64,000 nucleotides of DNA from positions 91,219 through 155,218 of the forward strand of contig CAZHYJ010000002.1 in assembly GCA_964536725.1 (NCBI GenBank), written 5' to 3'. Below are positions 2,727 to 21,177 of this stretch, one piece after another (position 1 is the first letter of the stretch; the number at the start of each line of letters is the position of its first letter). Position numbers and translations under genes: made by a program. The stretch comes from an uncultured Gammaproteobacteria bacterium (lineage in GTDB: Bacteria; Patescibacteriota; Patescibacteriia; Magasanikbacterales; GWA2-37-8). Under the pieces are notes generated by a model. That model did not search any database, was not told where the DNA came from, and saw only the letters and a program-made list of their open reading frames with translations.

Positions 2727-2732
2727 AAAACT

Positions 2733-3647: not shown

Positions 3648-3659
3648 GATCTTAATAAA

Positions 3660-4445: not shown

Positions 4446-4648
4446 GGACAAATTAAAATTCAAAAAATTAATCAACCAGTGCGGTGTAGTTTGGCTCAGT
4501 ACTCTGACGCAAGTTAGACGAAAAGAGTCGGACGCGGATATCGCGGCAGTGGTTGGTGTTTTTGCATTACGCCCATTTTCGGGAATCCAATCAATTTACC
4601 AATTTAATTAATTTATTTATTTAATTTACACTTTAGTACTATAATACT

Positions 4649-8231: not shown

Positions 8232-8240
8232 ACCAACAAA

Positions 8241-8267
8241 ATCCTCCAGGAATGGGGGATTTTTTTG
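8241..8267 (+). terminator. rho-independent terminator closing the ribosomal-protein operon
   Basis: AUCCUCC-AGGAAU-GGGGGAU forms a 7-bp stem with one U-G wobble. A UUUUUUUG run follows at 8261-8267. Confidence 0.6.
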
Positions 8268-8271
8268 TGGC

Positions 8272-8300
8272 TTGTCAATTATATTATAAAGGCGTAAAAT
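8272..8300 (+). promoter_or_regulatory. sigma70-type promoter TTGTCA-17-TAAAAT driving the mod-old-res operon
   Basis: TTGTCA at 8272-8277, a 17-nt spacer, TAAAAT at 8295-8300. It lies about 25 nt upstream of the mod ATG. Confidence 0.5.
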
Positions 8301-8325
8301 ATAGCTATAATTACTATATAATTGT

Positions 8326-10155
8326 ATGGTTAATACAACTTTTGTTAGTGGTCAGTCGCTTGATATTCAAGCTGAAAAATTGGATGTTTTAAAAAATAAC
8401 TTTCCAGAAATATTTACGGAAGGTAAGATTGACTGTCTAAAATTGAAGCAAACACTTGGTGAGTCAGTTAGTACCGATAGTGAACGATATGGTTTGAGTT
8501 GGGCTGGTAAGAGCAACTGTTTTAATGACATTCAGACGCCTACTATGGCGACTTTGGTGCCAAACAGGGACGAATCAGTGGATTTTGATAAGACTAAGAA
8601 TTTGTTTATTGAGGGTGAAAATCTAGAGGTTCTGAAGGTGTTGCAAAAAAGTTATCACAGCAAAGTAAAAATGATATATATCGACCCTCCGTACAATACT
8701 GGCACTGATAGTTTTGTTTACCCAGATAACTTTAGTGAGTCAGAGCAAGAATATTTGAAAAAGGCGGGAGACGTGGCGGAGACAGGAGAGTTGCTTAGAG
8801 ATTTTCATAAGAATTCCAAAGATGGTGGTAGATATCATAGTAACTGGTTGAATATGATTTACCCGCGTTTATTTTTAGCGCGTAATTTACTGCGTGAGGA
8901 TGGAGTTATTTTTGTGTCTATTGACGATAATGAAGCGCATAATCTACGTATGGTGATGAACGAGGTCTTTGGCGAGGAAAATTTTATTGGATCAATGATT
9001 CGCAAATCCAAGATAGGCGGCGGTTCTGATAGCAAATTTATCGTTAAGGAGCATGAATATTTAATTGTTTTTGCAAAAGATGCTCAGGGTTTGCCAGAAA
9101 TGTTTACGCCACACAATATAGAATATTTAAAACGCTACAAAGAAGAAGACGAAAATGGAAAATATTTTTGGGATACGTTTTCGAGACCTGGTCTAAAAAA
9201 TCCAATAAATTATGATGTTAAATTGCCAGACGGAACATTTAAAAACGGTGATTGGATAAGGTCTAAAGATAGATTTGAAGATGATTTAGAAAACGAAGAA
9301 ATCAGGTTTGTAAAAAAAGAAGACGGGTCTTGGAGTGTGCAGTTTAAACAATATTTGAATGAAGATGGTAAAAAACCAAGGTCTTTTTCTTCTGACTTAG
9401 GTTCGACAATTGATGGGAAAAAAGACATAAAAAGAATATTTGAAAACTCTAAAATCTTTTCGTACCCAAAGCCGGTAAAATTAATTAAGTTTATCGTTGA
9501 TATAGTAACTGAACCCGGGGATATCGTCTTAGATTTTTTTGCTGGATCAGGGACAACAGCAGATGCGATAATGCAATTGAATTCAATGAATGATGGTGAT
9601 AGAAATTTTATTTTAGTACAGATACCAGAACAAACCGACATAAAGAGTGTGGCATATAAGGAGGGGTATAAGACGATATCTGCTATTTGTGTCGAAAGAA
9701 TATGTCGTGCAAGTAATAAGATTAAAAAAGATTTGGAAAGCAAGCATATCGCAGACGTCGGTTTTAAAGTTTTAAAGTTGGAACAGAGTAATTTTAAAAT
9801 TTGGCGCGCAAGTAGTAACGATAGTGCCACAACATTGCAAGCCAAACTCGAGGACGTGGTGGAGAATGTTAAGTCAAAAGCAAATAAGGAAAGTATTCTT
9901 TTGGAACTCTTGCTTAAGTCCGGTGTTGAGCCAACTGTTGAGGTGGAAGACAAGAAGGATTTTTATTTAGTCAAAGAACATCAACTAGCAATTTGCCTAG
10001 CTGATAAAATTACCGAAAAAATAGTAGCAGATATTGTTGCCGAAAAACCTAAAACTGTTTTGTGTTTGGATACTTCGTTTGTCGGCAACGACCAGTTAAA
10101 AACCAATATCGCGCTTCAGCTTAAAAGTGAGGGGGTTGAGTTTAAAGTGGTATGA
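8326..10155 (+). CDS. mod: Type III restriction-modification methyltransferase (Mod), beta-class N6-adenine/N4-cytosine MTase
   Basis: DPPYNTG (motif IV, about nt 8683) comes before FFAGSGTTADA (motif I, about nt 9535). That circular permutation is typical of Type III Mod. 609 aa. Its stop overlaps the next start as ATGA. Confidence 0.85.
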   Translation: MVNTTFVSGQSLDIQAEKLDVLKNNFPEIFTEGKIDCLKLKQTLGESVSTDSERYGLSWAGKSNCFNDIQTPTMATLVPNRDESVDFDKTKNLFIEGENLEVLKVLQKSYHSKVKMIYIDPPYNTGTDSFVYPDNFSESEQEYLKKAGDVAETGELLRDFHKNSKDGGRYHSNWLNMIYPRLFLARNLLREDGVIFVSIDDNEAHNLRMVMNEVFGEENFIGSMIRKSKIGGGSDSKFIVKEHEYLIVFAKDAQGLPEMFTPHNIEYLKRYKEEDENGKYFWDTFSRPGLKNPINYDVKLPDGTFKNGDWIRSKDRFEDDLENEEIRFVKKEDGSWSVQFKQYLNEDGKKPRSFSSDLGSTIDGKKDIKRIFENSKIFSYPKPVKLIKFIVDIVTEPGDIVLDFFAGSGTTADAIMQLNSMNDGDRNFILVQIPEQTDIKSVAYKEGYKTISAICVERICRASNKIKKDLESKHIADVGFKVLKLEQSNFKIWRASSNDSATTLQAKLEDVVENVKSKANKESILLELLLKSGVEPTVEVEDKKDFYLVKEHQLAICLADKITEKIVADIVAEKPKTVLCLDTSFVGNDQLKTNIALQLKSEGVEFKVV

Positions 10156-11915
10156 AGATAAAAAAAGTAATCCTAGAAAACTTTAGAGCATATAGAGAAA
10201 AAATTTGTATAGATTTTGACGACATGACAGTTTTGATTGGGCAGAATGATGTTGGCAAGTCATCTTGGCTGGAAGCTCTTGATATTTTTTTTGAGGCTGG
10301 TGTGGTTAAGGTAGAGCCAAAAGACAGTACCATTAAAGAGTCCGAAACATTTTTTGTAACAGTGGTTTTTGCCCCACCAGAAAAAATCGTTATTGATGCA
10401 CAAGCCACGACCGTGTTAAGTGATGAGTTTTTGCTTAATGCGGATGCGGATTTGGAAATAAAAAGATGTTTTAAAAATGGCAAGGCTGGGAAAACTTTCA
10501 TAGTTGCCAACCATCCAACAAACAAGGAGTTGAAGGGGTTAATATCCCAAAAAATAGACGAGCTGAAGGATCTTGCGAGTAAATTGGGTGTCAAAGATGA
10601 AGCTGTTGAAAATAAAACTAAATCAGCTTCTTGGCGCAAGGCGATTAGAGATGCTGTGGAATTAGAATTTGGTTACCAAGAGATCGATATCGAGGGGGCG
10701 AAGGATATTTGGGCGCAAATAGAAAAGCAATTTCCAGTGTATAGTTTGTTTCAGTCTGACAGAAAAAATATTGATACAGATAACGAAGTGCAGGATCCTT
10801 TAAAAGCGGCTACAAAAATAATTCTTGCCAGGGAAGAGATAAAAGCCCTGCTTGGAGATTTGGAGACAAAGGTCAAATTAGCAACTGAAGAAATATCTAA
10901 CAAGACATTGGAGAAATTAAACGAAATGAATCCTGAATTAGCAAAGCATTTGCATGCTGATTTTGACAAACCCAAGTGGGACTTAGTCTTTAAACCGTTT
11001 ATAGATACTGACGATGGTGTCCCTTTAAACAAAAGAGGTAGTGGTGTTCGAAGAATGATATTGTTAAATTTTCTTAGGGCTGAGGCAGAGCGCAAAGCAG
11101 AAGGTGAGAAAAAAGATTTAATCTATGCGATTGAGGAACCAGAAACTTCGCAGCATCCTTTCCACCAAAGAATGATGATTGAGGCTTTGTTAGAACTTTC
11201 AAAAAGACACAATATCCAAGTGATTATAACGACGCATAGTCCGCAACTTATTAAAGATGTTGGATACAAGAATATACGTTTTATAGCTAAAACCGAAGAT
11301 AAAGCTAGACAAATAATATCTGGTGAAAAAGCAATGCAAATGACAATTAATGAGTTGGGTGAGTTGCCAAGAATTGATGGGGGTTACCTGTTTTGTGTTG
11401 AAGGCCAAAATGATGTTTCGTTTTTTAGAAATGTAGCAGGGGTGGTTAACTTATTTGATCTTAACAACATTCCGATATTACCTTTAAATGGTGGTTTTAT
11501 TAAAAAGTGGGCTGAGGAACATTATTTGGAAAATACTGATGTAAAGGAGTTTCATCTTTATGATCGTGATAATAAGGACGAAAGATACAAAGCAACAGCC
11601 GAGAAAGTTAGTAGCTGGCCTAATGCGCAAGCTGTTATAACCAAGAAGAGGGAGATCGAAAATTATGTTCACCCCAGTTTGATTAATGATAAATTTGGTT
11701 TAGACTTGGTTTTTGACGGATCTTGGGACGACAAGAATATTCCCAAAATATGTGCAGATAGAACTGGGGAAAAGGAGGAAGTGATAAAAGAAATTATTTG
11801 CGGTGAGTTATCCGTTAAAATGACAAAAGATTTTTTTGAAGAAATAGAAGCGTGGGATGAGGTAAGGGGCTGGTTTGAGCAAATGAATAAATTAGCGTTA
11901 AGTGGTTCAAAATAA
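10152..11915 (+). CDS. OLD-family ABC ATPase + C-terminal TOPRIM nuclease (class-1 OLD-like, 587 aa)
   Basis: N-terminus has Walker A GQNDVGKSS, Walker B/D-loop DLIYAIEEPETSQHP and H-loop ITTHSPQLI. C-terminus has a Toprim glutamate (LFCVEGQNDVSFF) and a DxD motif (HLYDRDN). Length and architecture match P2 Old. Confidence 0.75.
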   Translation: MKIKKVILENFRAYREKICIDFDDMTVLIGQNDVGKSSWLEALDIFFEAGVVKVEPKDSTIKESETFFVTVVFAPPEKIVIDAQATTVLSDEFLLNADADLEIKRCFKNGKAGKTFIVANHPTNKELKGLISQKIDELKDLASKLGVKDEAVENKTKSASWRKAIRDAVELEFGYQEIDIEGAKDIWAQIEKQFPVYSLFQSDRKNIDTDNEVQDPLKAATKIILAREEIKALLGDLETKVKLATEEISNKTLEKLNEMNPELAKHLHADFDKPKWDLVFKPFIDTDDGVPLNKRGSGVRRMILLNFLRAEAERKAEGEKKDLIYAIEEPETSQHPFHQRMMIEALLELSKRHNIQVIITTHSPQLIKDVGYKNIRFIAKTEDKARQIISGEKAMQMTINELGELPRIDGGYLFCVEGQNDVSFFRNVAGVVNLFDLNNIPILPLNGGFIKKWAEEHYLENTDVKEFHLYDRDNKDERYKATAEKVSSWPNAQAVITKKREIENYVHPSLINDKFGLDLVFDGSWDDKNIPKICADRTGEKEEVIKEIICGELSVKMTKDFFEEIEAWDEVRGWFEQMNKLALSGSK

Positions 11916-11922
11916 ACTTATT

Positions 11923-14604
11923 ATGAAACTCCAATTCGACCCAAATCAACAGTATCAACTTGATGCCATCAAATCCACGGTGGACGTTTTTGAAGGTCAG
12001 CCATTATCTGGTGGCGATTTTGAATTTACGCTCCTTCACACACAAAGTGGTTTGCGGTTGCCTAGTACCGGAGTAGCCAATAATTTGTTAATTGATGCTC
12101 AGACGATGCTTAATAATGTTAATGTGGTTAAAGAGAGGAACGGAGTACCGCTAGAAAAGGATGGAACGTCATTGGGTGTAGTGGAAATTGGGGCTGGGGT
12201 CTTTCCCCAGTTTACAATCGAAATGGAAACTGCGACCGGTAAGACCTATGTCTACCTTCGTACCGTATATGAGTTAAACAAGCAGTATGGCTTTAAGAAG
12301 TTTATCATTGTGGTTCCGAGTATAGCTATCCGAGAAGGTGTACTAAAGAATTTGGAAATAACCAAAGACCATTTTGCCTCATTGTACAATAATGTTCCAG
12401 TGGATTATTTTGTCTATGACAGTCGGAAGCTTGGTAAACTTAGAGGCTTTGCCACTGGTAATACTTTACAAATAATGGTGATTAACATCGATGCCTTTAA
12501 CAAGGATATTAACATAATGCACCAAGATGTGGACCGGCTGCAAGGTAAGCCAATAGATTTTATACGACAAACTTCCCCGATAGTAGTGATGGACGAACCA
12601 CAAAACATGGAGTCGGACACAGCCAAAAAAGCCATTGCAAGTTTAAATCCTCTATGCACTTTTAGATACAGTGCTACTCACCGCAATTATTACAACTTGT
12701 TATACAAGTTAGATCCAGTGCAAGCATACGACCTTGGATTGGTAAAAAAAATAGAAGTAGATTCGGTGCTTTCTGACTCTGATGCAAACAACGCTTTTGT
12801 GCAGTTGGTTTCTATCGACAGCAAAAAGAAAGGTATAACCGCCAAAATCAAAATTCATGTAAATGAGAAAGACGGAGCATCTTCAAAGCAAGTAACAATA
12901 AAACCAGGGAGTGACTTGTTTGAGTTATCCAAGGAGCGGGAAGTTTATAAAAGTGGTTTTACCGTAGAAGGGATTGACGCAGAAAATGGCTATATCGAAT
13001 TTAGCAATGGTGTTGTCATTAAAAACGGTGAGACGCGTGGTGGTTTGTCCGATGAAATAATGAAGGAACAAATCCGTGAAACTATTCGCGAGCACTTTGA
13101 GAAAGAGTTGAAGTTGACTGCCAAGGGTATAAAAGTTTTGTCTTTGTTCTTTATAGACAGGGTGGCAAATTACCGCGCCTATAGTGGTAACGAACAACAG
13201 AAGGGTAAAATCGCCCAGTGGTTTGAAGAAATTTATAGTGAGATGGCGAAGTTGGAGAAGTACAAGGAGCTGAACTTGGCGGAGGCAGGATTGGTGCACA
13301 ATGGCTATTTTTCGATAGACAACAAAGGACATGTAAAAGACACTAATGGTCAGACACAGGCAGATGACGATACTTATGCTTTAATTATGAAGGACAAAGA
13401 GAGACTGCTGTCTTTTAGAGAACCGTTAAGATTTATTTTTTCTCACTCTGCCTTGCGTGAAGGTTGGGACAGTCCAAACGTTTTTCAAATTTGTACACTA
13501 AACGAAACGAAATCAGAATTAAAAAAACGACAAGAAATTGGTCGTGGTTTGAGATTGGCAGTCAACCAAGATGGCGAGCGTATTTTTGACACCACGATTA
13601 ATCGTTTGACTGTTATTGCTAATGAGAGTTATGAAGAGTTTGCTAATAAACTACAAACAGAGATACATGACGAGTGTGGGGTAGACTTTACTGGTAGAAT
13701 AAAAAATAAGAAAAAATCTAAAGTGGTGAAGGTGAAGAAAGGTTACCAGTTAGATGAAAACTTTAAAGCACTTTGGGATAAGATAAAGCAAAAGACCAAG
13801 TACCAGGTGGAATTTAAAACTGATGAATTGATTGCAAAATCTGCTAAGGCAGTAAAAGAAATGTCTCGAATAGAGTCAATTAAAATAAAAGTAAGCAAAG
13901 CCAGGATTGAAATGAAGCAGGAGGGAATTTTTGCTACTCCGCCATCGAGAGAGAAGGATATTGAGTTTGTAATTAACGACCTTTTTATTCCCGACGTTTT
14001 GCACTACATACAAACCAAAGTGGAGCTTACCAGAGATACTATCTACAAAATTATTTTGAAATCAGACAGGTTGGACGATATACTGGTTAACCCACAACAA
14101 TTTGTTGATCAAGTGTCAGAGATAATTAGATTTACCTTACAGCAGATGATGGTGGACGGAATTAAGTATGAGAAGATAGCTGGGCAGGAATATAAGATGA
14201 CATTGTTTGAGTCGGAGGAACTAATGGTATATTTGAGCGACAAAAATACTTACGAGGTCAAAGACAAAGCAAAGACTGTTTATGATTATTATGAACTAGA
14301 CTCAGAAGTTGAGTCAGATTTTATTAAAGCATTGGAAGAGCGTGAGGATATTTTGTTCTACGTTAAATTACCTCGGTGGTTTACCATTGGTACACCGATT
14401 GGTACATATAATCCAGATTGGGCGATTGTGTTTGAGGGTGATAAGAAGTTGTATTTTGTGGCTGAGACAAAGGGAACTAACAAGGTGGAACAATTGAAAT
14501 TGTCAGAGCAGTTAAAGATTAGGTGCGGTGAAAAACATTTTGCAGAATTTGAAGGTGTAGAATTTAAAGCGCCGGTGGTTGGATTGCAGGATGTGTTAAA
14601 ATAA
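11923..14604 (+). CDS. res: Type III restriction enzyme Res subunit (SF2 helicase + C-terminal PD-(D/E)XK endonuclease)
   Basis: MKLQFDPNQQYQLDAI start. Motif I METATGKTYVYL, motif II DEPQN, motif III SAT. C-terminal YNPDW..FEGD..FVAETKG nuclease motif. The ORF track starts at a GTG at 11902, but the ATG at 11923, 8 nt past the old stop, is preferred. Confidence 0.85.
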   Translation: MKLQFDPNQQYQLDAIKSTVDVFEGQPLSGGDFEFTLLHTQSGLRLPSTGVANNLLIDAQTMLNNVNVVKERNGVPLEKDGTSLGVVEIGAGVFPQFTIEMETATGKTYVYLRTVYELNKQYGFKKFIIVVPSIAIREGVLKNLEITKDHFASLYNNVPVDYFVYDSRKLGKLRGFATGNTLQIMVINIDAFNKDINIMHQDVDRLQGKPIDFIRQTSPIVVMDEPQNMESDTAKKAIASLNPLCTFRYSATHRNYYNLLYKLDPVQAYDLGLVKKIEVDSVLSDSDANNAFVQLVSIDSKKKGITAKIKIHVNEKDGASSKQVTIKPGSDLFELSKEREVYKSGFTVEGIDAENGYIEFSNGVVIKNGETRGGLSDEIMKEQIRETIREHFEKELKLTAKGIKVLSLFFIDRVANYRAYSGNEQQKGKIAQWFEEIYSEMAKLEKYKELNLAEAGLVHNGYFSIDNKGHVKDTNGQTQADDDTYALIMKDKERLLSFREPLRFIFSHSALREGWDSPNVFQICTLNETKSELKKRQEIGRGLRLAVNQDGERIFDTTINRLTVIANESYEEFANKLQTEIHDECGVDFTGRIKNKKKSKVVKVKKGYQLDENFKALWDKIKQKTKYQVEFKTDELIAKSAKAVKEMSRIESIKIKVSKARIEMKQEGIFATPPSREKDIEFVINDLFIPDVLHYIQTKVELTRDTIYKIILKSDRLDDILVNPQQFVDQVSEIIRFTLQQMMVDGIKYEKIAGQEYKMTLFESEELMVYLSDKNTYEVKDKAKTVYDYYELDSEVESDFIKALEEREDILFYVKLPRWFTIGTPIGTYNPDWAIVFEGDKKLYFVAETKGTNKVEQLKLSEQLKIRCGEKHFAEFEGVEFKAPVVGLQDVLK

Positions 14605-14609
14605 ATATT

Positions 14610-15053
14610 ATGACTGGAGTAAAAGTTGTCTCTGAAGAATTTGTGCAACGTACAATTATTTGTTGGTTATCAAGTCATGGTTGGGGAGCGAGTTTGCGGT
14701 TTGGCGCATTACATGATAAGGGTGTGGATATTAAAGTTAGACACAATAAATATTCTAGATATTTTTTGATTGAAACAAAAGGTGAGGGAAGTGCTACTTC
14801 TAAATCACGTAATTCCCAAAAAGAAACCCATTTTGTTTTTGGTTTAGGACAGATAGTGACGCGTATGAATTGTGGTGGTAGTACTAGAAATTATTATGGT
14901 TTAGGATTGCCTGAATCTAGTGCTAAAATTGCTCTGCGTCGTTTGCCTTGGCAGGTTGCTAAAAAATTATTACTGCATATATTTTCTGTTAACGGAAACG
15001 GCGAGGTAGTACAATTTAGTTGGAAGGAATTAAAAAAAATTCAAGAAAAATAG
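14610..15053 (+). CDS. small PD-(D/E)XK-fold protein (Hjc/Mrr-like), 147 aa, trailing the res gene
   Basis: Starts 5 nt after the res stop. GVDIKV...YFLIETKGEG fits a D..(D/E)xK nuclease core. Size and pattern resemble Hjc/Mrr-cat mini-nucleases. This is a motif-level call only. Confidence 0.35.
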   Translation: MTGVKVVSEEFVQRTIICWLSSHGWGASLRFGALHDKGVDIKVRHNKYSRYFLIETKGEGSATSKSRNSQKETHFVFGLGQIVTRMNCGGSTRNYYGLGLPESSAKIALRRLPWQVAKKLLLHIFSVNGNGEVVQFSWKELKKIQEK

Positions 15054-15078
15054 GTTAATTGTTATTAGTCAACTTCTT

Positions 15079-15834
15079 ATGTCCCAATACTACAACCCCC
15101 AACGCACCACCAAAATGTACACCGGCCTGTCTTCCGATAAACCGTTCGCATTGTCCCGTTCCAAAATTGACCTTTTCCTAGAGTGTCCGCGTTGTTTTTA
15201 TCTTGATCGCAAACTGGGTGTTGGACGCCCACCAGGATTTCCGTTTAATTTAAATACAGCGGTTGATCATCTTTTAAAATTAGAATTTGATATTCATCGG
15301 GTGAACGGGACCAAACATCCGTTGATTGAAAAATATGGCGTTGATGCTCAGCCGGTCGCGCATCGTGATTTGGATAAATGGCGTGCCAATTTTACCGGTG
15401 TGCGCTATTTGCATACTCCCACCAATTTGATGATCTTTGGCGCGATTGATGATCTGTGGATAAATTCTAAAGGTGAATATATTGTGGTGGATTACAAAGC
15501 CACATCAAAAGATGAGAAAATTACCAAATTAAACCAAGGTTGGCAGATTGGGTACAAACGACAGATGGAAGTATATCAGTGGCTTTTGCGTCAGAATGGT
15601 TTTAAGGTTTCTAATACTGGATATTTTGTCTATTGCAATGGTCAAAAAGATCGTAAAGCTTTTGATGGTAAATTGGAATTTGATGTGACTTTGATTGCGT
15701 ACAAGGGTGATGATTCGTGGGTGGAGAAAACTATTGTTAAAGCGCACAAGTGTTTGAACGGTGGTAAGATTCCGAAGGCGAGCGGGGAGTGTGATTATTG
15801 TAATTATATTAAGGCGGTGAATAGTAAATTATAA
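15079..15834 (+). CDS. Cas4/RecB-like PD-(D/E)XK nuclease-family protein with 4-Cys cluster
   Basis: N-terminal CPRC. GAIDDLW...IVVDYKATS gives the D..D-x-K nuclease motif. C-terminal C-x14-CDYC. About 250 aa, the usual size for standalone Cas4-like nucleases. Confidence 0.65.
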   Translation: MSQYYNPQRTTKMYTGLSSDKPFALSRSKIDLFLECPRCFYLDRKLGVGRPPGFPFNLNTAVDHLLKLEFDIHRVNGTKHPLIEKYGVDAQPVAHRDLDKWRANFTGVRYLHTPTNLMIFGAIDDLWINSKGEYIVVDYKATSKDEKITKLNQGWQIGYKRQMEVYQWLLRQNGFKVSNTGYFVYCNGQKDRKAFDGKLEFDVTLIAYKGDDSWVEKTIVKAHKCLNGGKIPKASGECDYCNYIKAVNSKL

Positions 15835-15840
15835 TATATT

Positions 15841-16122
15841 ATGTCTAAACGTAAATTTGAAATTATAATAGGTGTTGTTGGTTTATTAGTTGTGGTTGGT
15901 TGTTTTGCTGCGGCCGAACGGGGGACACATTATTTCAAAATACCAGTATTTAAAACACTATACGATATAGCCAAGGTCTCGGCTGTGGTATTTTATGGAA
16001 TTTGCAAATTGTTTATAGTCGGTATTTGGAATGCTGTAATGAGTAATTGGTTAACTGGATTGGTGTCATTTGGATTAGTCTTGTTGGTGGTGTTGTTATA
16101 CTACTACAGGAAAAATAATTAA
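15841..16122 (+). CDS. small membrane protein (2 TM), 93 aa
   Basis: Two hydrophobic helices. Starts 6 nt after the previous gene. Confidence 0.4.
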   Translation: MSKRKFEIIIGVVGLLVVVGCFAAAERGTHYFKIPVFKTLYDIAKVSAVVFYGICKLFIVGIWNAVMSNWLTGLVSFGLVLLVVLLYYYRKNN

Positions 16123-16205
16123 TAAATCTTCTTTAATATGGGGTCGTTTGAAATTAAGCTTGCGGCCAAAAAAGATCGTTGTAGTAACCCTGATAATTTT
16201 AAGAA

Positions 16206-17441
16206 ATGAACCAAGCTAAAGCTTTAAAAATCCTACAATCCGGGGAGAATGTTTTTTTGACTGGTTCTGCTGGTAGTGGAAAGACTTTTTTGTTAAACAA
16301 ATTTGTTGACTACTTAACATGTAAGAAGATAAAGGTGGGGATAACCGCTTCCACCGGTATTGCTGCGACCCATTTAAACGGACGGACTATTCACTCTTGG
16401 TGTGGAATGGGGATTGAAAAGAAGATGAGTGCTAAAAAAATTAAAAAGATGTTGAAGCGACCAGAGTTGTTTGAAAGGATTAAAACTGCTGCCGTTTTGA
16501 TTATCGATGAAATCTCCATGCTCGACGCCGATCGTTTGGATCTGGTTGATAAGATTTGCAAGGCGGTCAGAAATCCCTTTGCTCCGTTTGGTGGAATTCA
16601 AATTGTTTTGTGTGGCGATTTTTTCCAATTGCCCCCGGTCAACAAAGATTCAAAATTTGCTTTTCATTCTTTTGCATGGAAACATTCAAATATCAAAGTC
16701 TGTTATTTAGACGAACAATTTAGACAGGATGATAAGGAGTTTTTAAATGTTTTAAACAAAATACGCGCCAATGAAGTTGGGGAAAAAGAATTGGAGTTGT
16801 TAAAATCTAGATTGCACGAACCGGTTACGCACGCGCCCAAGTTGACCAAGCTCTATACCCACAACATCAATGTGGATGCGTATAATGATTTTGAATTGTC
16901 CAACATCCAAAAGGAAGAAAAAATATATCGTATAACTGAACACGGCCCCGAAGAGTTGGTGAATTTTTTGAAGAAAAGTTATCCTGCTGTGGAAGAATTA
17001 AAGTTGAAAGTTGGTGCGGTGGTGATGTTTATAAAAAACAATTTTGATAGTGGTTATGTCAATGGCACTTTGGGGGAGGTAGTTGATTTTGATGACGGCG
17101 GTTATCCGATTGTTAAAACTAGAAATAAAGAAAAAATTGTTGCTATGCCGTCTAGTTGGAATATTGAGGAAGACGAAGTGGTTTTGGCGAGTATTAGGCA
17201 GGTGCCATTGCGTTTGGCTTGGGCGATAACCGTACACAAAAGTCAGGGGATGAGTCTGGATGCAGCGGAGATAGACCTGTCCAAGTCATTTGAACGTGGT
17301 ATGGGCTATGTGGCTTTATCGCGTGTGCGATCTTTAAGTAGTATCCGTTTGATGGGGATAAATGAAATGGCTTTGCAGGTGAATGAACAGGTGGTTAAAA
17401 AGGATAAGGATTTTAAGGTTTTGTCGGAGCAGAATAAATAG
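16206..17441 (+). CDS. Pif1-family (RecD-like, SF1B) DNA helicase
   Basis: LTGSAGSGKTF (Walker A), TGIAATHLNGRTIHS, LIIDEISM (Walker B), CGDFFQLPPV and VHKSQGMSLD motifs. 411 aa. Confidence 0.8.
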   Translation: MNQAKALKILQSGENVFLTGSAGSGKTFLLNKFVDYLTCKKIKVGITASTGIAATHLNGRTIHSWCGMGIEKKMSAKKIKKMLKRPELFERIKTAAVLIIDEISMLDADRLDLVDKICKAVRNPFAPFGGIQIVLCGDFFQLPPVNKDSKFAFHSFAWKHSNIKVCYLDEQFRQDDKEFLNVLNKIRANEVGEKELELLKSRLHEPVTHAPKLTKLYTHNINVDAYNDFELSNIQKEEKIYRITEHGPEELVNFLKKSYPAVEELKLKVGAVVMFIKNNFDSGYVNGTLGEVVDFDDGGYPIVKTRNKEKIVAMPSSWNIEEDEVVLASIRQVPLRLAWAITVHKSQGMSLDAAEIDLSKSFERGMGYVALSRVRSLSSIRLMGINEMALQVNEQVVKKDKDFKVLSEQNK

Positions 17442-17575
17442 GGTAAAAAAATAACCCCGAAGGGCTATTTCCAACCATGTTTCCTACTGCTGGTTTCCCA
17501 GCCACGCCACCGTCCGGTGACAGTTCGGATAACAGGTTTTTGTAAAATTATTTTATCACAGTTATGATATTTTGC

Positions 17576-17630
17576 ATAGCGCCGACTTTTTGATTTTAGT
17601 TTTTTGTGATAAAATATACCAAAATTAATT
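17576..17630 (+). promoter_or_regulatory. conserved promoter cassette copy A (extended -10 TGaTAAAAT) upstream of the NYN gene
   Basis: ATAGCGCCGACTTTTTGATTTTAGTTTTTTGTGATAAAATATACC. About 85% identical to copy B at 19500-19558. TAAAAT at 17610-17615 is preceded by TGa. Confidence 0.4.
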
Positions 17631-17637
17631 ATTTTTT

Positions 17638-18390
17638 ATGTTCAAACCACAAACAACCAGGATAAATGAGGTAGCAAATAACTATCGTGTCAGAATTGCC
17701 GCTTTAGAGCAGTTGTTTTTTGGTACTGTGAATATTTACGTCGATTACGCCAATGTTAGACCGTGGGCAACTAAACTGGGTTGGAATATTGATCTAAGGA
17801 GGTTAAAACAGTTTTTGTATTCTTTCAATAATGTTGCGTCGGTAAAGTTTTATAGTGGACTACTGCTTGGGGATATTGATTCGGAAGATTTGGATGAAGA
17901 GTGTAAGAAGTTATTTAAAGATGATTATAAAACTAAGTCGGTAAAAATTTTAAAGAAGTCTATAGATTACAGCAGTATAAAATCAAATTCTTCAGACTTG
18001 CTGGAGCAGTTTGTACGCAAGTGTCTGCTTCGAGAATATACACTGGACACAATTGAATATTTGAACGAACGGTTTAGAGATTTAAATCAAATTGGTAAAT
18101 TATTCATAGAAGATAGAAAATGTAATTTTGATGTGGAAATTGGGACTGATATGGCTCTGGATTTAGAAAGAAAAGGTGTGGACACTTTTGTTTTATGGAG
18201 TGGCGACAGTGATTTTTATGATCCAGTATTAAAACTTCTAGAAAAAGGAAAAAGAGTAATATTGTTTGCGACGGCCAGAAAAGTATCGTCGGAGTTAAAT
18301 GATCTCGGCCAAAAAGGTTTGTGTATTTATGATATTCAAAAAATCAGGAATTTTATATGCTACAAGCGGCAGATTGATTTGAGTCTGTAA
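17638..18390 (+). CDS. NYN-domain (LabA-like, PIN-like) predicted RNase
   Basis: VNIYVDYANV at the N-terminus. DVEIGTDMALD...FVLWSGDSDFYDPV..GKRVILF are the characteristic NYN acidic motifs. Confidence 0.7.
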   Translation: MFKPQTTRINEVANNYRVRIAALEQLFFGTVNIYVDYANVRPWATKLGWNIDLRRLKQFLYSFNNVASVKFYSGLLLGDIDSEDLDEECKKLFKDDYKTKSVKILKKSIDYSSIKSNSSDLLEQFVRKCLLREYTLDTIEYLNERFRDLNQIGKLFIEDRKCNFDVEIGTDMALDLERKGVDTFVLWSGDSDFYDPVLKLLEKGKRVILFATARKVSSELNDLGQKGLCIYDIQKIRNFICYKRQIDLSL

Positions 18391-18584
18391 AAAAATGGAT
18401 GCAAAAAGGACTCCTTGCGGAGCCCCTAAGCTATAGAATTCTTGAGGTTATTACTAACCTACAATCACAGTATATCACGGAATTATGGTTTTTGTCAATG
18501 TCTACGGCAGTTATCCACAGGAGTACAATTTTTTGTGATAAGGTAGTAGGATAAAAATGTTAAATTAATGTAGGCATATATCAT

Positions 18585-18932
18585 ATGACTGATGTTAAAC
18601 AGTTAACTGAGAGGATGCTAAAATTTAGGGACGAGCGTGATTGGAAGCAGTTTCATAACCCGAAAGATTTGGCGATTTCTTTGTCGTTAGAGGCGTCGGA
18701 GGTTTTGGAACATTTTCAGTGGAAGACGAATGAGGAGGTTGCCAAATATGTTAAGACAGATCGGGAAGAAATTGGGGACGAGTTGGGTGATGTGATGAAC
18801 AACTTACTTTTGTTGGCTGAAGCGGTGGGGGTAGATATATTGGACGCAGCAGAGAAAAAGATTGAGAAGAACGAGAAAAAGTATCCGGTGGACAAGGTGA
18901 AGGGGTCCGCGAAGAAGTATGATCAGTATTAG
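18585..18932 (+). CDS. MazG-like nucleoside-triphosphate pyrophosphohydrolase (small all-alpha NTP-PPase)
   Basis: 115 aa. EASEVLEHF...REEIGDELGDVMNNLLLLA supplies the EExxE/D metal-binding helices of the MazG/HisE fold. Confidence 0.75.
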   Translation: MTDVKQLTERMLKFRDERDWKQFHNPKDLAISLSLEASEVLEHFQWKTNEEVAKYVKTDREEIGDELGDVMNNLLLLAEAVGVDILDAAEKKIEKNEKKYPVDKVKGSAKKYDQY

Positions 18933-18960
18933 TGAGTGAGATAAATTTTTTGAATGTGAA

Positions 18961-18990
18961 TACCCTTGACAAAACAAGGGTATTTTGATA
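18961..18990 (+). terminator. rho-independent terminator after the MazG-like gene
   Basis: TACCCTTG-ACAAAA-CAAGGGTA hairpin followed by TTTTGATATTATTTTTTG. Confidence 0.55.
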
Positions 18991-19077
18991 TTATTTTTTG
19001 TTGCAAAGGAAAGCGGTTAGGCTGTCTTTTTTAGGTAATTTAACCGGTTTCCTTGGGTAGTAAAGGAGGACGGGATT

Positions 19078-19338
19078 ATGAAGAAGTGCAACAGGGAACA
19101 CGTGGTCATTCTGGGGACGAATCCTGATGGCACCGTGGACATGATGTGCGACGATGGGTCGGTGGGCCAGGCCGTCCCGCGCAAAGGAGGCGAGTTCAGA
19201 CTCGAGCCCACGGAGGTCGACGGCCTCTACCACCGAGTCTCCACCCGTGGCAACAAGTCCAGGGTCGGCTACTCGAAGGCCTTCGCCGACAACTGGGATG
19301 GCATTTTCGGCGCCAAGCTGGATACCACCGTGAACTAA
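19078..19338 (+). CDS. hypothetical protein (86 aa) encoded on a ~60%-GC foreign islet, preceded by a strong AAAGGAGG SD
   Basis: GC content jumps from about 38% to about 60% between roughly 19040 and 19420. Perfect SD 8 nt before the ATG. High-GC codon usage. No similarity I can name. Confidence 0.45.
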   Translation: MKKCNREHVVILGTNPDGTVDMMCDDGSVGQAVPRKGGEFRLEPTEVDGLYHRVSTRGNKSRVGYSKAFADNWDGIFGAKLDTTVN

Positions 19339-19456
19339 GGAGGTCGTCATGAACCGTCCAACCGGACCGCCGCAAGGCAGGTGGTCCAAGCGGAACAAAA
19401 ATCCGCTCGCACCACCATGTATATTTCTAAATATTTGGGAATACACATGGAGGGTT

Positions 19457-19478
19457 ACCGCGAGCGGTTTTTTTGTTG
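19457..19478 (+). terminator. weak rho-independent terminator (ACCG-CGAG-CGGU + U7)
   Basis: Short 4-5-bp GC stem followed by TTTTTTTGTTGT. Lies at the 3' edge of the high-GC islet. Confidence 0.35.
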
Positions 19479-19499
19479 TACAATAAAAAACTAGTGTAA

Positions 19500-19558
19500 A
19501 TAGCGTCAGTTTTTTGATTTCAGATTTTTATGATAAAATATACAGTATAATTAATTTA
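19500..19558 (+). promoter_or_regulatory. conserved promoter cassette copy B upstream of the MazF/PemK-like gene
   Basis: ATAGCGTCAGTTTTTTGATTTCAGATTTTTATGATAAAATATACAG. TGaTAAAAT extended -10 at 19531-19539. Paralogous to copy A. Confidence 0.4.
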
Positions 19559-19574
19559 TAAATTATATTTAGTT

Positions 19575-19976
19575 ATGAATAATAAGGAGGGGGTTGAGAA
19601 GTTCATTGAGTGGACAAAATTAAAAATACGACTACACATTTCTTTACACGAAATCTATTTTCGAGAAGGGGAAATTTGGTGGGCGAGCTTGGGTGTAAAT
19701 GTTGGCCACGAACAAGATGGGAAAAATGAAAATTTCGAGAGACCGATCTTAATATTAAAAAAATTTAATCAGCATGTTCTTTGGGCGGTGCCACTCACTA
19801 GTCAGGTCAAAGAAGATAATCCGTATTATATAAAATATAAATTAGGTGATAATGTTTATGCTGCGGTTATTTCCCAGCTTAGGTTGGTAAGTTCAAAGAG
19901 GTTGCGTAGAAAGATTGGTATGTTTTTAGCAGAAGACTTCGAAAGGGTTAGACAAGAAATTAAAAAACTTATATAA
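19575..19976 (+). CDS. MazF/PemK/Kid-family endoribonuclease toxin-like protein (with ~30-aa N-terminal extension)
   Basis: REGEIWWASLGVNVGHEQDGKN..RPILIL...AVPLTSQ. This matches the G-D/E-I-W-W-x-x-L and E-Q-x-G-x-RP-x-L-I-L and P-L-T-S-Q signature blocks of PemK/MazF. Confidence 0.7.
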   Translation: MNNKEGVEKFIEWTKLKIRLHISLHEIYFREGEIWWASLGVNVGHEQDGKNENFERPILILKKFNQHVLWAVPLTSQVKEDNPYYIKYKLGDNVYAAVISQLRLVSSKRLRRKIGMFLAEDFERVRQEIKKLI

Positions 19977-20181
19977 AAAACGAAACCTACCGGTTAAGGT
20001 AGGAATCTCGGAGCTATCCCCGAAAGGATAACCATTTGTAAATACAGTATAGCATGTAGAGGGGTAAAAAGTCAAGTTATTGTGGATAACTTCTTTGTAG
20101 GCACGGTCTTCAACCAGTTAAACCACTGACTTTTTTCATCTTTGCCTTTTTTGCGTTTTTGCGCTAAAATACAGGAGAAAT

Positions 20182-21177
20182 ATGTTGATTCAAATTGCCG
20201 ACAATAAATCTGTTTGGGATGCTTTTTTGCTGAAAAATAAAGCGGTTTTTACACAGTCCTGGGATTGGGGTGGCGTTTTGGCGTCTGAAGGTAAAAAGAT
20301 TGAAAGATTGTTGGTGGTGGATGGTACGGAGATTGTGGCGGCGGTAATGGTGGTGTATAACTTTTTTCCGTTTGGTATTAAATACGCGGCAGCTTCTTGG
20401 GGGCCGGTGTTTGCTAAGGGAATGGAGAATAGGGGTGGGGAGTGTTTAGATTTACTTGGGAAATATTTTAAAGATAACGGTTGTGTATTTGCACGGATTG
20501 AACCATTGGTTTTGTTTGATACTAAAAGTGAATACAAATTAAAACAAATCAAAGATGTTAGTCCAAGTCATACACTCGTTTTGGATCTGACAATGGGTGA
20601 AGAAAAAACAATGTCTGGAATTGAAAAAAAGACCCGCTATGAAATTCGTCAGGCGCAAAAAAACAATTTGGAAGTGAAAGAACAAAAAGATCCGGATATT
20701 TTTTGGAGCTTAATGAAAAAGACGGCGAGTCACGATGGTTTTCGTACGCATCCAGAGGAGCATTACAAAAAGATATTAGCAAGTGACAGTAGTGTACAGT
20801 TAAATGCCTGCTATCATGGACAGCCAATTGCCACGGCGATTTTTTGGGAGTGGGATGGTATGTTCACATATATGTTCGCGGCCACCGATCGAAATTTTAG
20901 TAGTTTATCGGCGGCATATTTAATTCAGTGGGAAGCGATTAAGTTGGCCATGGGTCGGGGTTGCACGGCCTATGATTTTTTTGGTGTCGCGCCCAAGACT
21001 ATCGCACCGGACGCGCCGTATGATTATGATCGCAAACATCGCTACGCTGGTTTTACCAAATTCAAATTAGGTTTCGGTGGTCAACATAAAAATTTTCCGG
21101 GTACGTATGATTTGATTTTAGATCCCACTAAATATTATTTTTATTTACTCCTACGTTCAGTTAAACGTTTATTTTAG
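20182..21177 (+). CDS. FemAB/FemX-family aminoacyl-tRNA-dependent peptidoglycan peptidyltransferase (paralog 1)
   Basis: 331 aa. FemABX-like N- and C-lobes (WDWGGVL.., YDFFGVAP.., KHRYAGFTKFKLGFGG). Confidence 0.75.
   Translation: MLIQIADNKSVWDAFLLKNKAVFTQSWDWGGVLASEGKKIERLLVVDGTEIVAAVMVVYNFFPFGIKYAAASWGPVFAKGMENRGGECLDLLGKYFKDNGCVFARIEPLVLFDTKSEYKLKQIKDVSPSHTLVLDLTMGEEKTMSGIEKKTRYEIRQAQKNNLEVKEQKDPDIFWSLMKKTASHDGFRTHPEEHYKKILASDSSVQLNACYHGQPIATAIFWEWDGMFTYMFAATDRNFSSLSAAYLIQWEAIKLAMGRGCTAYDFFGVAPKTIAPDAPYDYDRKHRYAGFTKFKLGFGGQHKNFPGTYDLILDPTKYYFYLLLRSVKRLF

What the first reader, a model, noticed from the sequence alone, without database searches (positions are those of the whole stretch)
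19040..19486. About 380-bp high-GC (~60%) foreign islet with strong Shine-Dalgarno sites inside an SD-less, 38%-GC genome
The 86-aa ORF at 19078-19338 and the first about 23 codons of a second ORF starting at 19349 are GC-rich. Each is preceded by a perfect SD (AAAGGAGG, TAAGGAGG). No native gene in this window has an SD.

The second ORF switches abruptly to AT-rich sequence after MNRPTGPPQGRWSKRNKNPLAPP and runs into the terminator. The insertion junction therefore truncated it.

The shadow ORFs 18991-19446 (-) and 19146-19352 (+) are artefacts of the high GC.

Inference: a recent horizontal fragment from a high-GC donor. For an episymbiotic, CPR-like organism, the donor could be its actinobacterial host or that host's phage.
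Basis: partly seen in the sequence, partly recalled or inferred. Interest (0 to 1): 0.55.

Follow-up and report, generated by a model that had tools for sequence, protein, structure and literature searches.

The report
GC-rich mini-gene cassette with conserved hairpin
The GC-rich patch is real: it is a small self-contained gene (own promoter, ribosome-binding site and terminator) inserted between two neighbouring genes of an uncultured ultra-small bacterium, and related genomes carry sister cassettes with the same unusual terminator hairpin but unrelated GC-rich contents, so it is not a one-off scrap of host DNA.

Summary
Positions 19060-19420 are the GC maximum of the window (62.7% against 39.6%). 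Only the two islet ORFs, out of about 62, have AGGAGG ribosome-binding sites. Six independent assemblies carry the identical sequence, so it is not a chimera.

The anatomy is one transcription unit: a near-consensus sigma-70 promoter, a leader hairpin, an SD, an 86-codon ORF with GC1/2/3 of 56/43/83 (p<0.0002), a small GNRA hairpin, and an 84-nt terminator hairpin. The "abrupt AT switch" at 19418 is the loop of that hairpin, not an insertion junction. ORF2 is therefore read-through of 3' structure, not a truncated gene.

ORF86 has no homolog in 1.8 billion representative proteins, in phages or in plasmids, so no actinobacterial donor was found.

The cassette lies at the right end of an 11.3-kb defence island and splits a MazG-like/MazF pair that is adjacent in relatives. 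It is not MazF's antitoxin.

Four related Magasanikbacteria-like genomes carry cassettes with the same architecture. All share a homologous, covarying hairpin, found only next to GC-rich bodies in 190 kb screened. The bodies themselves cannot be aligned, and the cassettes sit at other indel sites.

Verdict: a moron-like cassette family. The foreign-fragment reading is only partly supported.

The parts
8266..19533 (+). 11.27-kb variable defence island that contains the islet at its right end. It holds type III Mod, an AriA/OLD-like ATPase, type III Res, a Cas4-like PD-(D/E)XK protein, a RecD/Pif1-like helicase, an NYN nuclease and a MazG-like gene.
   Evidence: Relatives L047, L048 and L049 align to window ..8265 (L049 to 8232) and resume at 19534. 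L007 goes from rpsI straight to FemAB.
18585..18932 (+). MazG-like gene, the upstream neighbour. In relatives L054-L056 it lies 3 nt from MazF.
   Evidence: Pfam PF12643, E = 1.9e-18. MazG/MazF adjacency is shown.
18958..18985 (+). Terminator-like hairpin of the MazG-like gene. The -35 box of the cassette promoter sits in its loop.
   Evidence: 11 pairs followed by a T-run.
18966..18994 (+). Sigma-70-type promoter: TTGACA, a 17-nt spacer with an extended TG, then TATTAT. The predicted transcription start is near 19001.
   Evidence: 11 of 12 consensus matches with TG, the best on the + strand in this region. All four sister cassettes have TTGACN-17-(T/C)(A/T)(T/A)AAT at the equivalent place. 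The start site is inferred.
19001..19060 (+). 5' leader hairpin. Its core arms are 19006-19019 and 19041-19054.
   Evidence: -22 kcal/mol, z = -2.0; I4, 93% complementary. This feature is specific to the window cassette.
19062..19069 (+). Shine-Dalgarno site AAAGGAGG, 8 nt before the ATG.
   Evidence: -11.7 kcal/mol. Sister cassettes L049 and L038 have AAGGAGG 5-6 nt before their ATG.
19078..19338 (+). ORF86, the GC-rich coding body (an orphan 86-aa protein).
   Evidence: GC1/2/3 = 0.56/0.43/0.83; 0 of 5000 shuffles reach this periodicity. No Pfam, PHROG, NCBIfam or PADLOC hit. Only itself among public proteins.
19337..19486 (+). Second SD (AAGGAGG, 19337-19343) and ORF2 (19349-19486). ORF2 is probably not a gene, because it runs through both 3' hairpins and the terminator.
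   Evidence: No codon periodicity (0.56/0.65/0.61). It has no equivalent in the sister cassettes. It overlaps conserved structure.
19364..19387 (+). Small GC-rich stem-loop: GGACCGCC / GGTGGTCC around GCAAGGCA, which contains a GCAA tetraloop.
   Evidence: fold. Sister cassettes have a short GC stem with a UUCG-containing loop at the same place, with compensatory changes visible in the alignment.
19394..19477 (+). Conserved 84-nt long hairpin, the family hallmark. It acts as a bidirectional intrinsic terminator with an A-run and U-run at its base. The loop is TCTAAATATTTGG and GGAGG lies in the 3' arm.
   Evidence: -41.6 kcal/mol, z = -7.3. Covariance model R1 scores 83.8 bits here and 47-102 bits in L007, L037, L038 and L049. 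12 of 32 pairs have compensatory changes; 86% of cells are paired against 39-51% in slid controls; 0 of 500 shuffles reach this.
19575..19976 (+). MazF/PemK-family toxin gene, the downstream neighbour and not part of the cassette.
   Evidence: PF02452, E = 1e-12. Homologs at 74-80% identity sit directly after rpsI with no islet.

Best explanation
The islet is a self-contained, moron-like mini-gene cassette. It is not a raw DNA fragment.

Shown anatomy: a near-consensus extended -10 promoter (18966-18994), a hairpin leader, a perfect SD, and an 86-codon ORF whose codon-position GC is that of a gene from a genome of roughly 60-65% GC. This is followed by a short GNRA stem-loop and an 84-nt hairpin with flanking A and U runs.

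Inferred function of these parts: the unit is transcribed on its own, translated from the SD, and terminated and stabilised at the double hairpin, which insulates it from MazF downstream.

It is one member of a family of at least five such cassettes in Magasanikbacteria-like Patescibacteria. All share the same order of parts (TTGACN-17-TxxAAT promoter, an SD or SD-like G-rich element (AAGGAGG in three of five), a start codon followed by a Cys within the first ten codons, a 230-340-nt body of 56-67% GC, a small stable stem-loop, and a homologous long hairpin). They sit at sites that are empty in other relatives. The hairpin module is conserved and covaries, while the bodies are essentially unalignable.

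The window copy lies at the right edge of an 11.3-kb defence island and separates a MazG-like gene from MazF, which are adjacent in other Patescibacteria.

Most likely mechanism (inferred): the whole unit from promoter to hairpin is what is gained, lost and exchanged between genomes. The body is exchangeable or fast-evolving cargo that encodes a small accessory protein of unknown activity, and the strong promoter, SD and 3' hairpins drive its expression. The body's origin in a GC-rich, SD-using gene pool is plausible for this copy, given the GC3 of 83% and the stop-overlapping second ribosome-binding site, but it is not demonstrated.
For: - Promoter and terminator.
- SD uniqueness in the window.
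- Coding periodicity with p < 0.0002.
- The body has no excess RNA structure on either strand (z = +0.2 and +0.08).
- No Rfam, tRNA or tmRNA match.
- Six independent assemblies are identical across the boundaries.
- Filled versus empty sites: GtrA/infA; MazG/FemAB in L049 against L047; MazG|MazF 3 nt apart in L054-56 against 642 nt in the window.
- Hairpin homology and covariation.
- The hairpin is found only beside GC islets in about 190 kb of related loci.
- Shared promoter, SD and N-terminal layout.
- Bodies are unalignable, with only faint motifs shared.
Against: - The family rests on only five members.
- No transcript or protein data exist.
- ORF86 has no homolog, and its AlphaFold model is unusable (pLDDT 48.8), so its protein function is a guess.
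- Three sister bodies (L007, L038, L049) show no codon periodicity, so coding is not established for the whole family.
- No transposase, integrase, target-site duplication or other mobility signature was found. The only candidate is a 10-nt direct repeat, TTTTTTGTTG, at 18994 and 19469, which may simply reflect two U-tracts.
- If this lineage lacks the 16S anti-SD, as reported for about half of Parcubacteria (PMC9297842), the SD could not act as proposed.
Confidence: 0.55

Rival explanations
1. One reading: a recent, one-off horizontal fragment from a high-GC donor (for example an actinobacterial host or its phage). It carries one complete gene and the 5' end of a second gene that was truncated at the insertion junction.
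For: - GC3 of 83% and two perfect SDs, the second overlapping the ORF86 stop codon as at an operon junction.
- No SNPs in the islet among strains that differ by up to 2.4% downstream.
- The islet is absent from relatives.
Against: - No homolog was found in any collection searched.
- The supposed junction at 19418 is the loop of a hairpin, both of whose arms belong to a module conserved in four related low-GC genomes.
- The unit has a host-type promoter and terminator.
- Sister islets at one orthologous site in three species have stayed 62-67% GC.
- The taxon is Magasanikbacteria-like, with no known actinobacterial host.
Confidence: 0.15
2. A native, long-resident, fast-evolving small-protein gene family. 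Its GC-richness and SD are maintained by selection (for example for mRNA stability or resistance to AU-specific RNases such as MazF or NYN) or by GC-biased gene conversion at a recombination hot spot next to the palindrome. On this view no foreign DNA is involved.
For: - GC-rich bodies persist at the GtrA/infA site across three species.
- Faint colinear protein motifs are shared: CVRRxxGAC in L037 and L038; NGGGG and QRxxxVYxxGG in L037 and L049; M-x-x-C N-termini.
- Base composition of the sense strand is the same in all five bodies, with T at 15-22%.
Against: - ORF86 shows no significant similarity to the other bodies; the best Smith-Waterman z is 3.1 against L049.
- Its strong GC3 periodicity differs from the flat profiles of L007, L038 and L049.
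- There is no direct evidence for either selection or biased conversion.
Confidence: 0.2
3. The islet encodes the antitoxin for the adjacent MazF. This could be a protein antitoxin (ORF86 acting like MazE) or a type III-like RNA antitoxin separated from the toxin by a terminator.
For: The position immediately upstream of a PemK/MazF gene, in the order promoter, insert, terminator, toxin, resembles ToxIN.
Against: - MazF orthologs at 74-80% identity follow rpsI directly, with about 106 nt upstream and no islet. Others are preceded by other genes: a MazG-like gene at 3 nt, a PF1765-like gene, a sulfatase, a peptidase or, on a plasmid, a relaxase.
- There are no tandem repeats.
- There is no MazE or AbrB family match.
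- Sister cassettes sit at GtrA/infA with no toxin nearby.
Confidence: 0.03
4. The GC-rich stretch is a structured non-coding RNA, and the ORFs are incidental.
For: GC-rich intergenic islands in AT-rich genomes are often structured RNAs. The whole-transcript folding z-score is -4.7.
Against: - The excess structure is confined to the terminal hairpins. The body has z = +0.2 on the + strand and +0.08 on the - strand.
- The three-base periodicity is highly significant.
- There is no Rfam hit even at E <= 10, and none in the sister loci.
- The bodies are not conserved between relatives.
Confidence: 0.05

Closest known systems
Phage 'morons' (Hendrix / Juhala et al. 2000: autonomous promoter-gene-terminator units inserted between genes that are adjacent in related phages, often with deviant base composition). 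This comparison rests on my own knowledge.
   Same: The islet lies between genes that are adjacent in relatives. It has its own sigma-70 promoter and a factor-independent terminator. Its GC content is sharply different from its surroundings, and it carries a small accessory ORF of unknown function.
   Different: The host is a CPR bacterial chromosome or defence island, and no phage genes were seen. The members share a conserved, covarying 85-nt terminator hairpin plus a mini-hairpin, which is not a feature of morons. They also carry an SD in an otherwise SD-less genome.
Integron gene cassettes with attC sites, including solitary attC sites that lack an integrase. This comparison rests on my own knowledge.
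   Same: A small ORF is followed by a 60-140-nt imperfect palindrome that is conserved in structure more than in sequence. Cargo is unrelated between copies, and copies differ in presence or absence between relatives.
   Different: The cassette has its own promoter. No GTTRRRY / RYYYAAC core is present beyond a GTT that follows the U-run. No integron integrase is present; the only tyrosine recombinase in the window is 28 kb away. The cassettes are single, not arrayed.
Type III toxin-antitoxin loci (ToxIN). This comparison rests on my own knowledge.
   Same: The order of parts matches: a strong promoter, then a non-toxin insert, then a terminator, then an endoribonuclease toxin gene.
   Different: There are no tandem RNA repeats. 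The toxin is PemK/MazF, not ToxN or AbiQ. Orthologous MazF genes lack the insert.
Ordinary horizontally acquired ORFan genes in genomic islands
   Same: Atypical GC and codon usage, no homologs, and a location in a variable defence island.
   Different: The homologous hairpin module and identical architecture recur beside unrelated GC-rich bodies at other loci in related genomes. This points to a cassette family rather than a random acquisition.

Membership tests
Moron-like autonomous cassette | Inserted between genes that are adjacent in related genomes | tested here: met
   MazG-like and MazF are 3 nt apart in L054-56 against 642 nt in the window. GtrA/infA sites are empty in the window and L039 and filled in L007, L037 and L038. 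L049 is filled where L047 is empty.
Moron-like autonomous cassette | Own promoter and factor-independent terminator | tested here: met
   A consensus scan gives an 11/12 match with an extended TG. The hairpin plus U-run folds at -41.6 kcal/mol, z = -7.3. These are predictions only; there are no transcript data.
Moron-like autonomous cassette | Base composition different from flanking genes | tested here: met
   62.7% against 39.6% GC; GC3 of 83% against 33-57% in neighbouring genes.
Moron-like autonomous cassette | Resides in a phage or prophage genome | tested here: not met
   The neighbours are restriction-modification and defence genes and housekeeping genes. There was no match in the phage collection or viral contigs.
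Integron cassette / attC | attC with a conserved R' core GTTRRRY and its inverse core | tested here: not met
   Only GTT after the U-run is shared. The five 3' ends read GTTGTAC, GTTTTCC, GTTTTCT, GTTGTCT and GTTATAA.
Integron cassette / attC | Integron integrase and attI nearby, or an array of attC sites | tested here: not met
   Each locus has a single hairpin. The only tyrosine recombinase is XerC/D-like, at 47391-48341.
Integron cassette / attC | Promoterless ORF | tested here: not met
   All five cassettes have a promoter-like TTGACN-17-TxxAAT sequence.
Type II antitoxin (MazE-like) of the adjacent MazF | Conserved pairing with the toxin's orthologs and co-transcription with it | tested here: not met
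   Orthologs lack it. A terminator lies between the islet and MazF.
Type II antitoxin (MazE-like) of the adjacent MazF | Sequence or fold of a known antitoxin family | tested here: not met
   No Pfam, PHROG, NCBIfam or PADLOC hit. The fold could not be assessed because the model has pLDDT 48.8.
Type III TA antitoxin RNA | Tandem direct repeats processed by the toxin | tested here: not met
   Tandem Repeats Finder returned 0 rows at a minimum score of 30.
Known structured RNA family (Rfam) | Covariance-model match, or excess thermodynamic structure in the body | tested here: not met
   No credible hit at E <= 10; ARAGORN found none; the body z-score is +0.2.
DGR variable region | A template repeat copy and a reverse transcriptase nearby | tested here: not met
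   No second copy of the islet exists in the window. No RT was found among the 16 larger window proteins scanned against Pfam.
Horizontal transfer from an identifiable high-GC donor | A homolog in a high-GC organism or its phage | tested here: not met
   Only self-hits plus spurious matches to repeat proteins (hemopexin, Tudor-like, Ig). Nothing was found in phages or plasmids.

The most novel reading that the evidence does not exclude
Magasanikbacteria-like CPR genomes translate essentially without SDs and may lack the 16S anti-SD. They may nevertheless keep a dedicated 'hairpin-tagged' expression scaffold: a promoter, an SD, a mini-hairpin and an 85-nt covarying hairpin. The 230-340-nt body of this scaffold is hypervariable and is held at 56-67% GC across speciation.

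This would imply one of two things. Either a previously undescribed gene-capture or body-exchange mechanism is keyed to the hairpin, or there is a selected nucleic-acid-level property, for example transcripts that survive the lineage's ubiquitous MazF or NYN RNases, or that use a specialised mode of translation initiation.
Probability: 0.22. Interest if true: 0.8.

Novelty: new variant of a known kind. Interest (0 to 1): 0.58.

Why it matters
CPR/Patescibacteria genomes are tiny, AT-rich and largely lack SDs, and how they acquire and express new genes is poorly understood.

A recurrent, structurally conserved cassette places hypervariable, GC-rich, SD-led mini-genes under strong promoters at indel hot spots. 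That would give a concrete handle on three things: gene flux in this lineage, whether SD-dependent initiation still operates there, and a pool of orphan small proteins that may mediate defence or host interaction.

It also shows that a "foreign GC islet" can be the visible part of a lineage-specific element family. This changes how such islets should be read in metagenome-assembled genomes.

Tried and rejected
- tmRNA or tRNA-like reading of the ...GCACCACCA end: ARAGORN found nothing in the window.
- Known RNA families: Rfam at E <= 10 gave only microRNA and sRNA noise driven by the hairpins. Gathering-level scans of the window and L007, and an E-value scan of L037, L038 and L049, found nothing in the islets.
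- Donor search: a word-indexed search of 5.8 billion proteins and a full phmmer search of 1.8 billion representatives returned only the protein itself. The other 13 hits are multi-stretch matches to long repeat proteins or repeat-domain proteins; the seven I checked against Pfam are hemopexin, Tudor-like and Ig repeat proteins. tblastn and blastn against phages and plasmids gave nothing. L007's ORF and L043's GC-rich gene also gave nothing.
- Metagenome-wide scan with the loop+GGAGG pattern: 28 hits, all chance matches without the stem. The viral hit was likewise chance, and a generalised hairpin pattern gave 0 viral hits.
- Structure prediction of ORF86 without an alignment gave pLDDT 48.8, so I ran no fold search.
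- DGR idea: no template repeat and no RT.
- Type III TA idea: no tandem repeats.
- MazE idea: refuted by ortholog contexts.
- Hypermutation idea: zero SNPs in the islet across six strain contigs.
- Literature: nothing on such cassettes turned up. The only relevant paper was the report that many Parcubacteria lack the anti-SD motif.
Full report
**1.
Windows of 300 bp starting at 19031-19171 are the 15 most GC-rich of the 64-kb window. The maximum is 0.627 against a mean of 0.396 (sd 0.044). The fine profile rises at about 19050 and falls at about 19420.

I computed anti-SD duplex energies for about 62 long ORFs. Only 19078 (AAAGGAGG, -11.7 kcal/mol) and 19349 (TAAGGAGG, -11.8) have a canonical SD. 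Ribosomal-protein genes and almost all others have none.

Four of the ten AAGGAGG heptamers in the window fall within 19063-19590.

**2. Anatomy.**
The islet is a complete transcription unit.

- A promoter matching 11 of 12 consensus positions, with an extended TG (TTGACA-17-TATTAT, 18966-18994), sits in and just after the terminator hairpin of the upstream MazG-like gene.
- A 60-nt leader hairpin follows.
- Then come the SD and the 86-codon ORF.
- Downstream lie an 8-bp GC stem around GCAAGGCA (19364-19387) and an 84-nt hairpin (19394-19477; -41.6 kcal/mol, z = -7.3) based on an A-run and U-run.

The 3' arm, ACATGGAGGGTTACCGCGAGCGG, is complementary to the "GC-rich" 5' arm. ORF2 therefore runs through two structural elements and ends right after the U-tract, and it shows no codon periodicity (0.56/0.65/0.61).

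**3. Coding, not structural RNA.**
ORF86 has GC1/2/3 of 0.56/0.43/0.83, and 0 of 5000 shuffles reach that periodicity. Neighbouring native genes have GC3 of 0.33-0.38, and the MazG-like gene has 0.57.

The body folds no better than shuffles of the same composition on either strand (z = +0.20 and +0.08). The whole-transcript z of -4.7 therefore comes from the terminal hairpins.

Rfam gave nothing credible, and no tRNA or tmRNA was found.

**4. No donor.**
ORF86 has no Pfam, PHROG, NCBIfam or PADLOC match. Among 5.8 billion clustered proteins, and in a full phmmer pass over 1.84 billion representatives, it finds only itself. The remaining 13 weak hits match different halves of ORF86, mostly through several stretches; the seven I checked against Pfam are hemopexin, Tudor-like and Ig repeat proteins.

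tblastn and blastn against 50,697 phage and 72,556 plasmid records gave nothing. AlphaFold without an alignment gave pLDDT 48.8, so I attempted no fold comparison.

**5. Not a chimera, and the genomic context.**
Six Logan contigs from the SRR118456xx series, SRR27197516 and SRR16642447 carry the gene in the same context. Five are 100% identical to the window over 18400-20200, and the sixth has six differences, all outside the islet. No contig has a SNP in the islet, although L003 differs by 2.4% further downstream.

The names of the closest named homologs of the GtrA and MazF proteins place the organism in Candidatus Magasanikbacteria / Patescibacteria.

Relatives L047, L048 and L049 align up to window 8232-8265 (the rpsI gene, and in L047 and L048 its terminator) and resume at 19534. 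Window 8266-19533 is therefore an 11.27-kb insertion. It encodes a type III Mod, an AriA/OLD-like ATPase, a type III Res, a Cas4-like nuclease, a RecD/Pif1-like helicase, an NYN nuclease and a MazG-like protein. The islet is its last element, and the hairpin ends about 55 nt before the junction.

MazF orthologs at 74-80% identity follow rpsI directly, with a gap of about 106 nt. In L054-L056, a MazG-like gene and MazF are 3 nt apart. In the window the cassette separates them by 642 nt. These contexts, together with the intervening terminator, exclude the islet as MazF's antitoxin.

**6. The turning point: sister cassettes.**
The GTDB representative L007 (FemAB 80% identical) lacks the island. 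It does have its own 476-nt segment, L007:1349-1824, with GC up to 0.675, between the GtrA-like gene and infA. The window has only 41 nt there.

L037 and L038 have GC-rich segments at the same site, while L039, L040 and the window are empty. L049 has a further one between a MazG-like fragment and FemAB, where L047 is empty.

Oriented by their ORFs, all five share the following parts:

- TTGACN-17-(T/C)(A/T)(T/A)AAT.
- An SD (AAGGAGG in the window, L049 and L038; weaker in L007 and L037).
- A start codon followed by Cys within the first ten codons (MKKCNRE, MKICITC, MACKDQC, MPCNNPDC; L037 opens V-I-T-R-Q-G-L-D-C).
- A body of 230-340 nt at 56-67% GC that is T-poor on the sense strand.
- A short GC stem with a UUCG- or GNRA-type loop.
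- A homologous long hairpin.

A covariance model built from four of the hairpins scores 84-102 bits on them and 46.6 bits (E = 9e-11) on the independent L049 copy. It finds no other copy in about 190 kb of related loci.

In the five-way alignment:

- 12 of 32 pairs show compensatory changes.
- 86% of cells pair, against 39-51% when the partners are slid.
- No shuffle out of 500 reaches the observed values.

The hairpin's 5' arm supplies the C-terminal 'NKNPTA*' of GtrA in P0016, P0018 and P0022. The same arm reads 'NKNPLAPP' in the window's ORF2.

The bodies, by contrast, cannot be aligned. Only faint, frame-consistent motifs are shared: CVRRxxGAC in L037 and L038 (E = 5e-4 in a five-sequence comparison), and NGGGG with QRxxxVYxxGG in L037 and L049. 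ORF86 has no significant similarity to any of them.

Codon periodicity is strong only in ORF86, and in an unrelated GC-rich, SD-led gene in L043. It is marginal in L037 and absent in L007, L038 and L049.

**7.
The foreign look of the body is confirmed, and so is its absence from relatives. The "single recent fragment from an actinobacterial host" reading is not supported, for four reasons:

- No donor exists in the data searched.
- The "truncated second gene" is conserved 3' structure.
- The unit carries host-type transcription signals.
- Equally GC-rich sister cassettes with a homologous hairpin persist at one orthologous site in three species whose GtrA proteins are 63-80% identical to the window's.

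The stop-overlapping second ribosome-binding site (TAAGGAGGTCGTCATG) and the GC3 of 83% remain the best arguments that this particular body came from a GC-rich, SD-using gene pool.

**8. Mechanism.**
Shown: the order of parts, the conservation and covariation of the hairpin, the indel status, and the coding periodicity.

Inferred: strong autonomous transcription from about 19001; SD-led translation of ORF86; termination and 3' protection by the tandem hairpins, which also insulate MazF; and gain, loss or exchange of the whole promoter-to-hairpin unit as one piece.

An anti-SD motif was reported as undetectable in about half of Parcubacteria (PMC9297842). Whether the SD is functional here needs the 16S 3' end, which is not in the window.

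The protein's role is unknown. I commit, with low confidence, to an accessory small protein of the defence-island type.

A window-specific possibility is that ribosomes starting at the second SD translate through the terminator hairpin and modulate read-through into MazF. This is speculation.

**9. Comparison with known systems.**
The closest concept is the phage "moron". Three of its four defining features are met and the phage context is not.

Integron attC cassettes resemble it in having a small ORF followed by a structured palindrome with unrelated cargo. They fail on core sites, integrase, array organisation and promoterlessness.

ToxIN-like, MazE-like, DGR and Rfam memberships were each tested and not met.

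**10. Verdict.**
It is a new variant of a known kind: an autonomous accessory-gene cassette, distinguished by a conserved covarying hairpin module, by GC-richness that persists across species, and by SD use in SD-less CPR genomes. Interest is moderate to high. The family claim rests on five members and needs a systematic survey.

Noticed in passing
window 17469-17538 (-): A gathering-level Rfam hit to DUF3800-IX RNA (RF02968; 43.2 bits against a cutoff of 36.8, E = 8e-6). It lies in the spacer between the RecD/Pif1-like helicase gene and the NYN nuclease gene of the defence island.
   Followed up: no
window 8266-19533: An 11.27-kb defence island inserted between the rpsI terminator and the MazF promoter. 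An AriA/OLD-like ATPase (10152-11915) is embedded between the type III Mod (8326-10155) and Res (11902-14604) genes. These are followed by a Cas4-like PD-(D/E)XK protein, a RecD/Pif1-like helicase, NYN and a MazG-like gene. The rpsI-FemAB interval holds different variable genes in every relative examined.
   Followed up: partly
window 18585-18932 and 19575-19976; L054 340-1098: A MazG-like gene and a MazF/PemK toxin form a recurrent pair in Patescibacteria: 3 nt apart in L054-56, and in the order MazF...MazG in L047 and L049. This MazF clade (661 homologs at E <= 1e-10) showed no MazE-type antitoxin upstream in any context examined. The MazG-like protein may be its partner or antitoxin.
   Followed up: partly
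L043 1431-2230 (-): A further GC-rich (up to 61.5%) orphan gene of 212-239 aa in a Magasanikbacteria contig. It has GGAGG-5-ATG and strong codon periodicity (0.61/0.43/0.69), with no Pfam or plasmid homolog. It is followed by palindromes centred on AAATATTT but has no match to the R1 hairpin model.
   Followed up: partly
window 18994-19003 and 19469-19478: A 10-nt direct repeat, TTTTTTGTTG, brackets the leader-to-hairpin unit with a spacing of 475 nt. It could be a recombination or insertion scar, or simply two terminator U-tracts. All five cassettes end in TTTTTGTTNT.
   Followed up: no
window 18842-18902: Three of the six independent contigs carrying the islet end inside the 3' part of the MazG-like gene. 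This suggests co-occurring strains with MazG in another context, so that the assembly graph forks there.
   Followed up: no
window 2729-3653: An ORF of 304 aa (2733-3647, no Pfam match) between alaS and the GtrA-like gene is absent from L007, which joins the two genes directly. This is another strain-specific insertion.
   Followed up: no
window 4460-4580: A moderately GC-rich intergenic stretch between infA and rpmJ. It falls within an alignment block that is 86% identical to L007 over 4.1 kb. It could be a leader or regulatory RNA.
   Followed up: no
L007 record title: The GTDB representative carrying the sister cassette is titled 'uncultured Gammaproteobacteria bacterium'. Its gene content and closest named homologs are Magasanikbacteria / Patescibacteria, so this is probably a mislabel.
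   Followed up: no
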